This document shows positions 40,577 through 42,544 of a stretch of DNA of 64,000 nt, piece by piece. The stretch lies in contig JBCCWI010000009.1 of NCBI GenBank assembly GCA_039193795.1, positions 1,462 to 65,461 of the forward strand, in the 5' to 3' direction. This DNA comes from Actinomycetota bacterium. GTDB taxonomy: Bacteria > Actinomycetota > Acidimicrobiia > Acidimicrobiales > Aldehydirespiratoraceae. The position numbers and the translations under genes were made by a program. Numbering within the stretch: position 1 is the first letter of the stretch; each line of letters starts with the position of its first letter. Under the pieces are notes generated by a model. The model made no database searches. It was not told the origin of the DNA and was given only the letters and a program-made list of their open reading frames with translations.

Positions 40577-42544
40577 CTACGGGTTGGTCGCCACCACCGG
40601 CGATGCGATCTTGTCCACACGGATCGACGCGGCCTTGAACTCCGCGGTGCCGGAGTCGCGATCCCATTCGTCGTTGGTGATCAGGTTGATGTCGACGAGG
40701 TCCGGGAAGTGGAAGGTCGTGAAGGTGAGGCCCTTGGGGATGTCGGGCTGGATGCGGACCCCCATCTCGACGCTGCCGCGGGGCGACGAGACCCGCACGC
40801 GCTCGCCGTCCTCGATGCCGAGGGCGGCGGCGTCGTCGGGGTTCATGTCGAGTTCGTCGCCGTAGCGGATCGGGTTGTCGAAGCCGCCCGACTGCACGCC
40901 GGTGTTGTAGGAGTCGAGCGACCGACCGGTGGTCAGCCGCAGCGGGAAGTCGGCGCTGAGCTGCTCCTTGGGGCCCTCGTGGTGGGTGATCGAGAACGGC
41001 GACGGCTCGCGTCCGCCGAGGCCCTCCTCCCACAACCAGCCGTGGAGGAACGGCGAACCGGGGTGGTCGAGGTCGGGGCACGGCCACTGCAGACCGCCCT
41101 CCTGCTCGAGCCGCTCGTAGCTCATGCCCGCGTGCATGGGCGACAGCGAACGGAGCTCGTCCCAGAGGTTCTCGGGGGTGGGATCGCCCCAGGAGTCGAC
41201 CCCCATCCGCTTGGCGAGATCGCCGATGATCTCGTGGTCGTGGCGGCACATGCCCGGCGGGGTGACGGCGGGGCGCACTCGCTGGACCCGTCGCTCCGAC
41301 GACGTGACGGTGCCGTCGCACTCGGCCCAACCGACCGACGAGGGGAGCACCACGTCGGCGAGTTCGGCGGTGCCGGTCATGAAGATGTCCTGGACGACGA
41401 GGATGTCGAGATCCTGCAGCAGCGCCCGGGTGTGGCCCGACGCGGCCTCGGAGTCGGCCGGGTTCTCGCCGATGCAGTAGGCGCCCTTGATGATGCCCTC
41501 CTCCATGCCTTCGAGCATGAGGGTCAGGTGGCGGCCGTTCTTGGCGGGGAGGTCCATCCCGTAGGTGGCCTCGAACTTCGCGAGGTGTTCGGGGTTGGTG
41601 ATGTCCTGGAAGCCGGGGAGCTTGTTGGGCAGGGCACCCATGTCGCCGCCGCCCTGCACGTTGTTCTGCCCGCGCAGCGGCACCAGCCCCGATCCCCACT
41701 TGCCGATGTGGCCGGTGAGCAGGGCGAGGTTGCACAGCGATTTCACATTGTCGACACCGTTGTGGTGTTCGGTGATGCCGAGGGTCCAGAGGATCTGCGC
41801 GGTCTCGGCGGTTGCGTAGGCGTGGGCGACCTCTTGGATCGCGTGTGCCGGCACACCGGTGATCTGTTCGGCGTACTCGAGCGTGTACGGCTCGACGTGG
41901 GCCTTGTAGTCCTCGAACCCCTGCGACGAGTGGGCGATGAAGGCCGTGTTGTGGAGGTCGGCGGCGATGATCTCGCGGCCGATGGCGTTGGCCATCGCCA
42001 CGTCGGTGCCGACGTTGAGACCGAGCCAGGCGTCGGCGAACTTGGCCGACGACGTGCGACGAGGGTCGACGGAGTACATCTTCGCCCCGTTGTCGAGCCC
42101 CTTCAGGACGTGGTGGAAGTAGATGGGATGCGCCTCACGGGCGTTGGATCCCCACAGGAGGATGACGTCGGTCTCCTCCACCTCCGTGTAGGAGGAGGTG
42201 CCCCCTCCCGCTCCGAACACTGCCGCCAGACCGACGACGCTGGGAGCGTGTCAAGTTCGATTGCACGAATCGATGTTGTTCGTGCCGAGTGCCATGCGGG
42301 CGAACTTCTGCGCCGCGTAGTTCATCTCGTTGGTGGACTTGGAGCAGCTGAAGACGGCGAACCCCTCGGGCCCGTGCTCGTCCTTGATCTTGGCGAAGCC
42401 CTCCGCGGCGCGGGTCAGGGCCTCGTCCCAGGTGGCTTCGCGCAAGACGCCGTCCTCGCGGACCATCGGCGTCGTCAGGCGGGGCAGCGGGTCGCTGAAC
42501 CGCTTGGCTTTGCGCTTCTTGGCAGAACCGTTCGGGTATCCCAC
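40577..42544 (-). CDS. Formate dehydrogenase catalytic Mo/W-bisPGD subunit, selenocysteine-containing (in-frame UGA at 42251..42253), lacking the FS0 domain
   Basis: ORFs 42251..42646 and 40577..42220 are in one frame, joined across a single TGA. The junction reads [30 protein letters not shown], compared with E. coli FdhF NNVDCCARV-U-HGPSVAGL. The GTG start at 42544 is tentative. Confidence 0.8.

What the first reader, a model, noticed from the sequence alone, without database searches (positions are those of the whole stretch)
42205..42280. Selenocysteine codon in the formate dehydrogenase catalytic subunit, split by the ORF track into two ORFs
What the sequence shows:
- On the minus strand, ORF 42251..42646 stops at the TGA at 42251..42253.
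- ORF 40577..42220 continues in the same frame 11 codons later.
- My translation across the junction is [39 protein letters not shown].

Established knowledge:
- E. coli FdhF has ...NNVDCCARV-U(140)-HGPSVAGL... with Sec ligating Mo, followed by a conserved His.

Inference:
- The match places the UGA exactly at the Sec/Cys ligand, so the two ORFs are one 655-residue selenoprotein gene (40577..42544).
- TGA is an ordinary stop for many other genes in this window (the ATGA/GTGA overlaps), so this is local recoding and not a variant genetic code.
- By eye, GCUCC (5-9 nt after the UGA) can pair with GGAGC (38-42 nt after it), enclosing a CUG-GCGG-CAG mini-hairpin. I could not fold this properly.
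Basis: partly seen in the sequence, partly recalled or inferred. Interest (0 to 1): 0.7.

Follow-up and report, generated by a model that had tools for sequence, protein, structure and literature searches.

The report
Selenocysteine codon in split formate dehydrogenase
The in-frame TGA is a genuine, deeply conserved selenocysteine codon with its own RNA hairpin signal, sitting in the catalytic subunit of a formate dehydrogenase from a marine actinobacterium; this is a textbook kind of recoding, in an enzyme whose subunits are cut up and ordered in an unusual way.

Summary
On the minus strand one 655-codon gene (42544..40577) has a single in-frame TGA at 42253..42251, which is codon 98. It aligns with Sec140 of E. 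coli FdhH, is followed by the catalytic His, and the catalytic Arg is conserved.

All 79 testable related loci (Acidimicrobiia MAGs, 63-94% identical) carry TGA there. Both halves are under purifying selection, and no restart codon is conserved after the TGA. Cys-type homologues exist.

Synonymous variation vanishes for codons +5 to +10. These form a 6-bp hairpin (GUCGUC-GGUCU-GGCGRC, 42238..42222) that is paired in every sequence, with compensatory changes. Its GGUCU loop is in the same register as the E. coli fdhF SECIS.

TGA ends 30 of 35 other genes, so this is local recoding.

The catalytic subunit lacks its 4Fe-4S domain. That domain is at the end of a separate Fe-S protein encoded third, after a NuoE-NuoF fusion, and the order is conserved in all 75 sufficiently long loci.

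selABCD are not in the window or the loci, so the Sec machinery is inferred, not shown.

Verdict: an ordinary kind of recoding, a new member, and a modestly novel enzyme layout.

The parts
40577..42544 (-). Selenoprotein gene for the Mo/W-bisPGD catalytic domain of formate dehydrogenase. It has 655 codons: GTG start 42544..42542, Sec codon 98, TAG stop 40579..40577. It has no FS0 4Fe-4S domain. A basic N-terminal tail (KKRKAKR) precedes RLTTPMVR.
   Evidence: TIGR01591 Fdh-alpha profile 130-672 matches the post-TGA part, 520 bits; conserved GTG start; PDB: HDCR FdhF, FdhH, FdsA residues 295-932; alignment with E. coli FdhH; stop codon.
42251..42253 (-). In-frame UGA, the selenocysteine codon (residue 98). 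It aligns with E. coli FdhH U140.
   Evidence: (TGA in 79/79 loci), and 66 (Cys in homologues P0136 and P0126).
42222..42238 (-). Apical hairpin of the bacterial SECIS: stem GUCGUC / GGCGGC, loop GGUCU (42232..42228). It spans nt 16-32 counted from the U of UGA.
   Evidence: minimum-free-energy fold; third-position entropy about 0 for codons +5..+10, against 1.5-1.9 bits in flanks; all 444 cells paired, one compensatory CG to GC change, UG/CG/UA and UA/UG variants, slid controls 16-84%; RNAalifold finds the same helix; E. coli fdhF has GGUCUG at the same nt 22-27.
42210..42247 (-). Possible lower helix of the SECIS (GC.CC at 42247..42243 with GG.GC at 42214..42210).
   Evidence: predict it. 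In one search its four constant pairs are fixed by codon positions 1 and 2, and the only free pair (col 9-42) is unpaired in 32/74 sequences. It is therefore neither supported nor excluded.
38771..40537 (-). Second cistron: a NuoE-NuoF fusion of 588 aa (2Fe-2S thioredoxin-like, FMN/NAD(H)-binding 51K, SLBB, 4Fe-4S). This is the diaphorase subunit. An AGAGG Shine-Dalgarno precedes the ATG at 40537.
   Evidence: (full-length match to M. extorquens FoDH1 beta 7e5z_B; C. necator FdsB 6vw7_B).
37887..38774 (-). Third cistron: a 295-aa Fe-S protein equal to the N-terminal third of FdsA (2Fe-2S Fer2_4, two 4Fe-4S, and the Molybdop_Fe4S4 FS0 domain at its C-terminus, with CxxCxxxC...CIKG). Its start overlaps the NuoEF stop (GTGA). 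The stop is TAG.
   Evidence: TIGR01591 profile 1-51 matches residues 307-357 of the ORF; R. capsulatus FdsA residues 17-306.
42545..42600 (-). Conserved non-coding block directly upstream of the GTG start (GTTCCACGATGCGGTACTGTTCCG...GTGGGA), with no Shine-Dalgarno. It is a likely promoter/operator of a leaderless or near-leaderless mRNA.
   Evidence: alignment of the window with L001-L006 and L068. The function is inference only.

Best explanation
The TGA at 42253..42251 (minus strand) is decoded as selenocysteine. One mRNA encodes a 655-residue Mo/W-bisPGD formate dehydrogenase catalytic subunit in which Sec98 ligates the metal, followed by His99.

The proposed decoding mechanism is as follows. 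A SECIS hairpin 16-32 nt after the UGA (stem GUCGUC/GGCGGC, loop GGUCU) is bound by SelB-GTP-Sec-tRNASec. This delivers Sec to the ribosomal A site and outcompetes release factor 2. The geometry is the same as in E. coli fdhF.

The enzyme is a cytoplasmic, NAD-linked FDH of the FdsABG / FoDH1 type, built from three cistrons. First comes the Sec-containing Mo domain. Second comes a NuoE-NuoF fusion (FMN, NAD+). Third comes a NuoG-N-terminal-like Fe-S protein that carries the FS0 cluster normally fused to the front of the Mo domain. Electrons from formate would pass Mo, then FS0 and the Fe-S chain on the third subunit, then FMN, then NAD+.

Shown here:
- the UGA and its conservation;
- translation on both sides of it;
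- the selected hairpin;
- the domain content and the gene order.

Inferred:
- that the inserted residue is Sec (the machinery was not seen);
- that the three products assemble;
- that NAD+ is the acceptor.
For: - TGA is present at the homologous codon in 79/79 loci from Acidimicrobiia MAGs at 63-94% protein identity.
- All 120 best database homologues are called only from after the TGA.
- Both halves are under purifying selection: pN/pS 0.34 upstream and 0.25 downstream.
- Residues +1..+10 are conserved, but the first possible restart codon varies from codon 5 to 32 and is absent within 40 codons in 10 loci.
- Sec/Cys pairing is met. P0136, a Cys-type member of the same split clade (65% identity), has DSCNRT-C-HAPSVAGL. 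The fused relative P0126 has NCARL-C-HAPTVAGL.
- E. coli FdhH U140/H141/R333 align with U98/H99 and the Arg of RGQNNVQG.
- SECIS evidence: third-position entropy is about 0 bits for codons +5..+10 against 1.5-1.9 bits at flanking four-fold sites. The hairpin is paired in 444/444 cells, with CG to GC, UG to CG/UA and UA to UG changes, some of which alter the amino acid but keep the pair. RNAalifold finds it independently. The loop GGUCU sits at nt 22-26, as in E. coli fdhF.
- TGA is the normal stop in the window, 30/35 genes.
- The TGA is present in independent unitigs of the source run.
- Enzyme type. Gene order is conserved in all 75 loci long enough to show it.
- Sec machinery exists in a sister order of the same class (bioRxiv 10.64898/2026.04.03.716425). 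FdhA is the most widespread bacterial selenoprotein (PMC5029168).
Against: - No selA, selB, selD or tRNA-Sec was found in the 64-kb window or in 1.44 Mb of related loci. The Sec-decoding machinery of this organism is therefore unseen.
- No Rfam family matches the hairpin, though bacterial SECIS elements are poorly represented there.
- The hairpin lacks the bulged U of the E. coli element and has a 5-nt rather than a 4-nt loop.
- The z-score of the window's own 72-nt fold is only -1.56, so a single-sequence fold would not have been convincing.
- Most stem columns are invariant, so covariation rests on few events. The one double change is in two related MAGs, L040 and L042.
- There is no biochemical evidence for selenium, for assembly of the three subunits, or for NAD+ as acceptor.
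Confidence: 0.88

Rival explanations
1. The gene is a pseudogene. A nonsense mutation (for example TGC/TGT to TGA) hit the Cys ligand codon, and the downstream part is not translated.
For: TGA is one step from either Cys codon. The window holds no Sec machinery. The gene also lacks the Fe-S domain expected of FdhF, which at first sight looks like a truncation.
Against: The same TGA is present in 79/79 loci across a clade down to 63% identity. The downstream 557 codons are intact and under purifying selection, pN/pS 0.25. The 'missing' Fe-S domain is a conserved separate gene.
Confidence: 0.01
2. Translation terminates at the UGA and restarts downstream. This would give a 97-residue peptide and a separate ~547-residue protein that assemble non-covalently, with no residue at the ligand position.
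For: Gene callers predict exactly this: all 120 database homologues start after the TGA. This clade has already split the alpha subunit once, so a further split is conceivable.
Against: No restart codon is conserved. The first in-frame ATG/GTG/TTG is at codon 11 in 41 loci and elsewhere in the rest, with none within 40 codons in 10 loci. Codon +11 is GTG in only 41 of 78 sequences and otherwise GTC/GTA/GTT. His+1 and residues +2..+10 are invariant or nearly so at the protein level, so they are translated. The enzyme would also lack its essential metal ligand.
Confidence: 0.02
3. The UGA is read through, but not as selenocysteine. Near-cognate or suppressor decoding would insert Cys or Trp, and the hairpin would act as a SelB-independent read-through stimulator.
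For: The Sec machinery has not been seen for this organism. Downstream hairpins can stimulate stop-codon read-through in other systems (my own knowledge, not tested here). Cys would be functional at this position, as shown by Cys-type homologues.
Against: The hairpin has the same loop sequence (GGUCU) and the same distance from the UGA as the SelB-binding element of E. coli fdhF. The position is the classical Sec position of the most widespread bacterial selenoprotein family (PMC5029168). If Cys were intended, a one-base change to TGC/TGT would be simpler, yet it is not seen in any of 79 loci. Sec machinery occurs in the same class (bioRxiv 10.64898/2026.04.03.716425).
Confidence: 0.06
4. The loss of synonymous variation at codons +5..+10 reflects something other than a SECIS, such as an antisense or overlapping element, an internal regulatory site, or strong codon preference.
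For: Most hairpin columns are invariant, so true covariation is sparse. Long ORFs exist on the opposite strand of this high-GC region.
Against: The constraint is confined to 18 nt placed exactly where a bacterial SECIS must lie. Every change seen in the stem keeps pairing, including changes that alter the amino acid. GTC, GGT, CTG and GCG are not uniquely preferred elsewhere in the same gene: other Val, Gly, Leu and Ala codons show 1.2-1.9 bits. The opposite-strand ORFs lack the GC3 signature of genes.
Confidence: 0.02

Closest known systems
E. coli formate dehydrogenase H (fdhF) with its Sec140 codon and SECIS
   Same: The UGA is at the homologous metal-ligand position, followed by His, and the catalytic Arg is conserved. 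The SECIS apical hairpin has GGUCU(G) at nt 22-27 after the U of UGA, encoded by the same Gly-Leu codons GGU CUG. The Mo domain is clearly homologous (PDB 1aa6, E 2e-133).
   Different: FdhH carries its own N-terminal 4Fe-4S domain (residues 1-60), whereas here that domain is on another polypeptide. The E. coli stem has a bulged U and a 4-nt loop closed by A-U; here there is a 6-bp uninterrupted stem and a 5-nt loop closed by C-G. FdhH feeds hydrogenase 3 in the formate-hydrogen lyase complex, not an NADH-dehydrogenase-like module.
FdsABG(D) NAD+-dependent formate dehydrogenases of Rhodobacter capsulatus and Cupriavidus necator (PDB 6tg9/6tga, 6vw7)
   Same: The overall cofactor set is the same. 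The Fe-S protein matches FdsA residues 17-306 and the Mo protein matches FdsA residues 295-932. The NuoF-like subunit matches FdsB. The enzyme is cytoplasmic and is found in aerobes.
   Different: FdsA is one ~958-aa chain with Cys at the ligand position, and the genes run fdsG-B-A-C-D. Here the alpha chain is cut at the FS0/Mo boundary, the Mo part is encoded first and the Fe-S part last, NuoE and NuoF are fused, the ligand is Sec, and no fdsC/fdsD was seen next to the operon.
Tungsten-containing FoDH1 (Fdh1AB) of Methylorubrum extorquens AM1 (PDB 7e5z, 7vw6)
   Same: The beta subunit is a NuoE-NuoF fusion and matches the window's 588-aa protein over its full length (residues 44-578). The alpha subunit is homologous. 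It acts in C1 metabolism, and the window and relatives lie among methylated-amine and C1-related genes.
   Different: FoDH1 alpha is a single ~990-aa chain with Cys. It is a two-subunit enzyme, not three.
Selenoprotein formate dehydrogenases of other Actinobacteria (for example mycobacterial fdoG/fdhA, PMC13449736)
   Same: A Sec-UGA in an FDH alpha subunit of a high-GC actinobacterium, where TGA is the main stop codon and annotation pipelines split or truncate the gene.
   Different: The mycobacterial enzymes are FDH-O/N-type (~1060 aa, membrane-associated, periplasm-facing) and lie next to selABCD. Here the enzyme is a cytoplasmic NuoEFG-linked type, and the sel genes are not linked to it.
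HDCR FdhF of Thermoanaerobacter kivui (PDB 7qv7) and F420/other FdhA of methanogens (7bkb)
   Same: These are the best sequence matches of the Mo domain among solved structures (E 4e-152 and 3e-147).
   Different: Both keep the FS0 domain in the catalytic chain, and they have different redox partners (hydrogenase filaments; F420 or heterodisulfide reductase complexes).

Membership tests
Bacterial selenoprotein gene (SelB/SECIS-dependent UGA recoding) | In-frame UGA at a position occupied by Cys in homologues | tested here: met
   Cys is found in P0136 (same split clade) and in P0126 (fused relative). The position aligns with U140 of E. coli FdhH.
Bacterial selenoprotein gene (SelB/SECIS-dependent UGA recoding) | Coding potential and purifying selection continue downstream of the UGA, with no independent start | tested here: met
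   pN/pS is 0.25 downstream. Residues +1..+10 are conserved. No restart codon is conserved.
Bacterial selenoprotein gene (SelB/SECIS-dependent UGA recoding) | Stem-loop shortly 3' of the UGA with G in the first loop positions (bacterial SECIS) | tested here: met
   Hairpin at nt 16-32 with loop GGUCU. It is paired in every sequence, with compensatory and one-sided changes. Synonymous sites are frozen. RNAalifold agrees. The register matches E. coli fdhF.
Bacterial selenoprotein gene (SelB/SECIS-dependent UGA recoding) | selA, selB, selC (tRNA-Sec) and selD present in the same genome | not testable with these tools
   None was found in the 64-kb window or in 82 related loci totalling 1.44 Mb. 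Indirect support: the machinery is reported in Actinomarinales, same class (bioRxiv 10.64898/2026.04.03.716425).
Bacterial selenoprotein gene (SelB/SECIS-dependent UGA recoding) | Selenium actually incorporated at the UGA | not testable with these tools
   This needs 75Se labelling or mass spectrometry.
Mo/W-bisPGD formate dehydrogenase catalytic subunit (FdhF/FdsA, TIGR01591) | Molybdopterin oxidoreductase and molybdopterin-dinucleotide-binding domains | tested here: met
   PF00384 (split by the UGA) and PF01568.
Mo/W-bisPGD formate dehydrogenase catalytic subunit (FdhF/FdsA, TIGR01591) | Sec/Cys-His dyad and catalytic Arg of formate dehydrogenases | tested here: met
   U98-H99 and R in PLRGQNNVQG align with E. 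coli U140-H141 and R333.
Mo/W-bisPGD formate dehydrogenase catalytic subunit (FdhF/FdsA, TIGR01591) | N-terminal 4Fe-4S (FS0, Molybdop_Fe4S4) domain in the same polypeptide | tested here: not met
   There is no PF04879 in the gene or upstream of it, and a divergent gene starts at 42667. PF04879 lies at the C-terminus of the protein encoded at 38774..37887.
Mo/W-bisPGD formate dehydrogenase catalytic subunit (FdhF/FdsA, TIGR01591) | Score above the curated equivalog cut-off of TIGR01591 (666 bits) | tested here: inconclusive
   The post-UGA part alone scores 520 bits over profile 130-672. Profile 1-51 matches the separate Fe-S protein at 52 bits. The joined read-through protein was not scored against NCBIfam.
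FdsABG / FoDH1-type NAD+-dependent formate dehydrogenase | NuoF-like FMN/NAD(H) subunit and NuoE-like 2Fe-2S module encoded with the catalytic subunit | tested here: met
   The 588-aa NuoE-NuoF fusion is directly downstream and conserved in relatives.
FdsABG / FoDH1-type NAD+-dependent formate dehydrogenase | NuoG-like Fe-S N-terminal region fused to the Mo domain in one alpha chain | tested here: not met
   The two parts are separate cistrons in permuted order in the window and in all 75 loci that extend far enough.
FdsABG / FoDH1-type NAD+-dependent formate dehydrogenase | Accessory genes fdsC/fdhD and fdsD in the operon | tested here: inconclusive
   NCBIfam scans of the GC3-supported ORFs of the window named no FdhD/FdsC/FdsD. 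Small ORFs were not scanned exhaustively.
FdsABG / FoDH1-type NAD+-dependent formate dehydrogenase | Formate:NAD+ oxidoreductase activity | not testable with these tools
   This needs an enzyme assay.

The most novel reading that the evidence does not exclude
The split of the alpha subunit and the permuted gene order may be an adaptation to selenocysteine decoding. Moving the Fe-S third of FdsA to the end of the operon places the UGA only 98 codons into the first cistron. A failed Sec insertion then wastes a 97-residue peptide instead of a ~370-residue Fe-S protein. Premature termination 1.7 kb before the next start could also lower synthesis of the diaphorase and Fe-S subunits, through polarity and loss of coupling. 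Expression of the whole enzyme would then be gated by selenium supply. A milder version of the claim is that this is simply the first recognised Sec-dependent member of the O2-tolerant FdsABG/FoDH1 class, and that it is widespread in aerobic marine and wastewater Acidimicrobiia.
Probability: 0.12. Interest if true: 0.6.

Novelty: new member of a known kind. Interest (0 to 1): 0.33.

Why it matters
Selenocysteine in formate dehydrogenase is the classical and most widespread case of bacterial UGA recoding, so the recoding itself is not surprising.

The work still has practical and biological value.

- It shows that a whole clade of abundant marine, estuarine and activated-sludge Acidimicrobiia depends on selenium for formate oxidation.
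- Public protein databases mis-call this gene throughout: all 120 best homologues are truncated at the UGA. Metabolic reconstructions and Sec-trait surveys of these lineages are affected as a result.
- It describes a three-cistron, split and permuted version of the NAD-linked FdsABG/FoDH1 enzymes that uses Sec instead of Cys. These enzymes are of interest for CO2 reduction, because Sec variants are usually faster. A natural heterotrimer in which the catalytic module is a separate 71-kDa protein could also be a convenient engineering scaffold.

Tried and rejected
- Frameshift hypothesis. I suspected that an upstream ORF (43122..42475) carried the missing Fe-S domains. Pfam finds nothing there, and that region belongs to a divergent plus-strand gene with a signal peptide. 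Rejected.
- Rfam. At gathering thresholds over the window, and at E<=10 over 42120..42330, only chance miRNA-like hits appear and nothing SECIS-like. This is uninformative, because bacterial SECIS elements are poorly covered.
- tRNA-Sec. ARAGORN finds no tRNA in the window or in 82 loci; only a tmRNA appears, in L037.
- sel genes. tblastn with E. coli SelA, SelB and SelD against the window plus 82 loci gives no hits. NCBIfam scans of about 55 window ORFs find no sel genes.
- Literature. Searches for Sec in Microthrix, Ilumatobacter or Acidimicrobiales, and for split Sec-type FdsA, found nothing specific. They returned only the Actinomarinales preprint and general surveys.
Rejected. It competes with the selected 6-bp stem and does not explain the frozen third positions of the two GTC codons.
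- The second hairpin in the window's minimum-free-energy fold (GGGAGGGGGCACCUCCUCC, about 42209..42191). Rejected as a conserved feature, because its codons vary freely in relatives.
- A first translation of the inserted gene was in the wrong frame and was corrected.
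Full report
**1. The observation**

On the minus strand the frame that runs from 42646 down to 40577 contains exactly one stop, TGA at 42253..42251. The flanking sequence is ...[25 protein letters not shown].... 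The ORF table lists 42646..42251 and 42220..40577 in the same frame. Pfam's Molybdopterin domain is cut by the TGA: profile positions 1-80 lie upstream and 99-353 downstream, followed by the Molydop_binding domain.

The source is a marine metagenome. Run X1 holds 91% of the sampled words. Its independently built unitigs cover 42207..42289 without a difference. Neither X1 nor a second run shows any variant at the TGA, although co-occurring strains vary at neighbouring synonymous sites.

**2. Conservation**

A protein search with the read-through product returned 120 best hits. All are 496-562 aa long and cover about 82% of the query, so all of them were called from just after the same point.

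A scan of one genome per GTDB species returned 80 loci, nearly all from Acidimicrobiia MAGs. These include Ca. Microthrix, Ilumatobacter, Ca. Aldehydirespiratoraceae and 'MedAcidi' genomes. The closest is L001, a Ca. Microthrix MAG at 94% identity.

In 79 of 79 loci that reach the site the homologous codon is TGA, with conserved protein sequence on both sides. pN/pS against the window is 0.34 for the 70 codons before the TGA and 0.25 for codons +12..+110.

The first in-frame ATG/GTG/TTG after the TGA is not conserved. It is codon 11 in 41 loci and codon 24 in 14, and there is none within 40 codons in 10 loci. Yet His+1 and the following residues are invariant or nearly so. Translation must therefore pass through the UGA. 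Pseudogene and stop-restart models are excluded for practical purposes.

**3. Is it the Sec position?**

I retrieved E. coli fdhF from NC_000913.3 and translated it. Its single in-frame TGA is codon 140, in ...NNVDCCARV-U-HGPSVAGL.... A pairwise alignment puts U140/H141 on the window's residues 98/99. The catalytic Arg (E. coli VRGQNNVQG) falls on PLRGQNNVQG.

An exhaustive search of 1.8 billion representatives found a Cys-type member of the same clade. P0136 is 65% identical, has the same short basic N-terminus, and carries the motif DSCNRT-C-HAPSVAGL. Fused ~900-aa relatives also have Cys there, for example P0126 with NCARL-C-HAPTVAGL. This meets the classical Sec/Cys-homologue criterion.

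TGA terminates 30 of 35 family-supported genes in the window and TAG the other 5, including this gene itself. The code is therefore standard and the recoding is local.

**4. The SECIS**

Among 78 distinct sequences, the third-position entropy of four-fold codons is 1.5-1.9 bits on both sides. It collapses to 0-0.34 bits for codons +5..+10, GTC GTC GGT CTG GCG ACA.

These 18 nt fold into a hairpin. The stem is G16-C21 with G27-C32, and the loop is G22 G23 U24 C25 U26. In window coordinates this is 42238..42222. It is part of the window's minimum-free-energy fold.

On an alignment of 79 sequences (A1) all 444 cells are standard pairs.
- Pair 18-30 switches from C-G to G-C in L040 and L042.
- Pair 20-28 is U-G, C-G or U-A.
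- Pair 17-31 is U-A or U-G.
- Several of these changes alter the amino acid yet keep the pair.
- Sliding the 3' partner drops pairing to 16-84%.

RNAalifold, run without my structure, predicts the same helix.

E. coli fdhF has GGUCUG at the same nt 22-27 after the U of UGA. From my own knowledge of the E. coli literature, G23 and U24 of that loop are the main SelB contacts. I did not verify this in a paper here.

The differences from E. coli are that there is no bulged U and that the loop has 5 nt and is closed by C-G.

The outer stem GCUCC/GGAGC is predicted. However, it consists of bases fixed by codon positions 1 and 2, and its only free pair is unpaired in 32 of 74 sequences. The inner CUG-GCGG-CAG mini-hairpin is incompatible with the selected stem.

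Rfam offers no match.

**5. Gene model and enzyme**

The GTG at 42544..42542 is conserved as a start in the close relatives, and more distant ones have ATG at a similar distance. Conservation of a basic tail (KKRKAKR, RNRRDRR, RGNRRQRY) begins there.

It is not a complete FdhF, because there is no Molybdop_Fe4S4 domain. A divergent plus-strand gene starts at 42667.

The missing part is found two genes downstream. 38774..37887 encodes a 295-aa protein with a 2Fe-2S domain, two 4Fe-4S motifs and the Molybdop_Fe4S4 domain at its very C-terminus (CSYCGVGC...LCIKG). It matches TIGR01591 profile positions 1-51 and R. capsulatus FdsA residues 17-306.

Between them, 40537..38771 encodes a NuoE-NuoF fusion that matches M. 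extorquens FoDH1 beta over its full length. The Mo protein matches FdsA residues 295-932.

The alpha subunit of an FdsABG/FoDH1-type NAD-linked FDH has therefore been cut exactly at the FS0/Mo-domain boundary, and the pieces are encoded in permuted order. The second and third cistrons overlap (GTGA). The order Mo(N)-UGA-Mo(C), NuoEF, FeS is found in every one of the 75 loci that extend far enough, and proS lies divergently upstream in 42.

At 50% clustering the clade has only two full-length representatives. Both are called from after the UGA. Everything else is at most 45% identical and is fused.

**6. What remains unshown**

The Sec machinery was not seen.
- No tRNA genes are in the window.
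- No sel genes are among about 55 scanned ORFs.
- No SelA, SelB or SelD homologue and no tRNA-Sec are in 1.44 Mb of related loci.

In this lineage the sel genes are evidently not linked to fdh, unlike in mycobacteria (PMC13449736).

Literature searches found no statement on Sec in Microthrix, Ilumatobacter or Acidimicrobiales. A 2026 preprint reports selA, selB, selC and selD in all 84 complete Actinomarinales genomes, a sister order of the same class. FdhA is the most widespread bacterial selenoprotein, found in 822 organisms (PMC5029168).

The existence of functional Sec decoding in these organisms is an inference from 79 lineages that maintain the UGA, the hairpin and the downstream reading frame. 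I consider it strong but indirect.

**7. Verdict**

This is a genuine selenocysteine codon with a bacterial SECIS, in a formate dehydrogenase gene. The kind is well known and this is a new member of it. Two features are worth recording: the split, permuted three-cistron architecture of the enzyme, and the uniform mis-annotation of the family in public databases. The interest is modest for a specialist. The speculative link between the gene order and the cost or regulation of Sec decoding is untested.

Noticed in passing
window 37887..42544 (-); L001-L082: The FdsA-type alpha subunit is split at the FS0/Mo boundary into two proteins. They are encoded in permuted order (Mo domain first, NuoE-NuoF fusion second, Fe-S protein last). 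The order is conserved in all 75 related loci that extend far enough. I found no description of it in the literature searches.
   Followed up: yes
window 42545..42600 (-): A non-coding block just upstream of the GTG start (GTTCCACGAT(G/C)CGGTAC(T/C)GTTCCG..GTGGGA, preceded by TTAGCC..GCCAAAAA) is conserved across relatives whose flanks are otherwise unalignable. There is no Shine-Dalgarno. TACTGT lies 8 nt before the GTG and fits a -10 box for a leaderless mRNA. The block may be an operator, and an IclR-type regulator gene is a conserved neighbour.
   Followed up: partly
window 42254..42259 (-): The two codons before the UGA are strongly biased to codons that are rare for a 69% GC genome. CGA (60/78) or AGA is used for Arg at -2, and ACT (57/78) for Thr at -1. 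This may be a context effect on Sec decoding or on termination.
   Followed up: no
window 42667..44343 (+): A 558-aa acidic protein with a signal peptide and a C-terminal-half transmembrane segment lies between proS and the fdh operon. It has no Pfam or NCBIfam match. It is absent from all 82 related loci, including the 94%-identical L001, where proS and fdh are about 230 nt apart. It looks like a recent insertion.
   Followed up: partly
protein database hits P0001-P0120: All 120 best homologues in the 5.8-billion-protein collection are called from after the UGA (about 540-560 aa). One carries the NCBI name 'formate dehydrogenase subunit alpha'. The selenoprotein is systematically truncated in public annotation.
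   Followed up: yes
P0136: This is a Cys-type member of the split clade (DSCNRT-C-HAPSVAGL). Its C-terminal ~100 residues turn into low-complexity Arg/Pro/Gly sequence, which probably reflects a frameshift error in the source assembly.
   Followed up: no
L013, L077, L079: The same Sec-type three-gene operon sits on contigs binned as Myxococcota (L013) and Acidobacteriota (L077, L079). This is either a binning error or horizontal transfer out of Acidimicrobiia.
   Followed up: no
window 36885..37883 (+); L081, L082 flanks: The operon lies among methylated-amine and C1-related genes. In the window there is a TmpA / gamma-butyrobetaine-dioxygenase-like gene next to it. In relatives there are dimethylglycine-dehydrogenase-like (DAO-FAO_M-GCV_T), ETF, MttB-like and Rieske oxygenase genes. 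This suggests that the formate comes from demethylation pathways.
   Followed up: partly
window 11546..12745 (-): This ORF has a strong but sub-threshold match to DMSP lyase DddP (NF043017, 318 bits against a cut-off of 600). It is a possible M24-family DMSP lyase-like enzyme in a marine actinobacterium.
   Followed up: no
window 51315..57079: A cluster for homoprotocatechuate (4-hydroxyphenylacetate) meta-cleavage: an extradiol dioxygenase, HpaE (768 bits, above cut-off), an isomerase, an HpaG-like protein and HpaH (380 bits, above cut-off).
   Followed up: no
window 2039..4399 (-), 26318..29895 (-): There are two sets of xanthine-dehydrogenase-family molybdoenzyme genes, with sub-threshold matches to 4-hydroxybenzoyl-CoA reductase, aldehyde oxidoreductase and Se-dependent XDH models. 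No in-frame TGA was examined in them.
   Followed up: no
window 42251..42277; runs X1, X6: Unitig depth peaks sharply (81x and 172x, against about 10x in flanks) over the ...[16 protein letters not shown]... segment. Many co-occurring strains in the same marine samples share this exact stretch.
   Followed up: no
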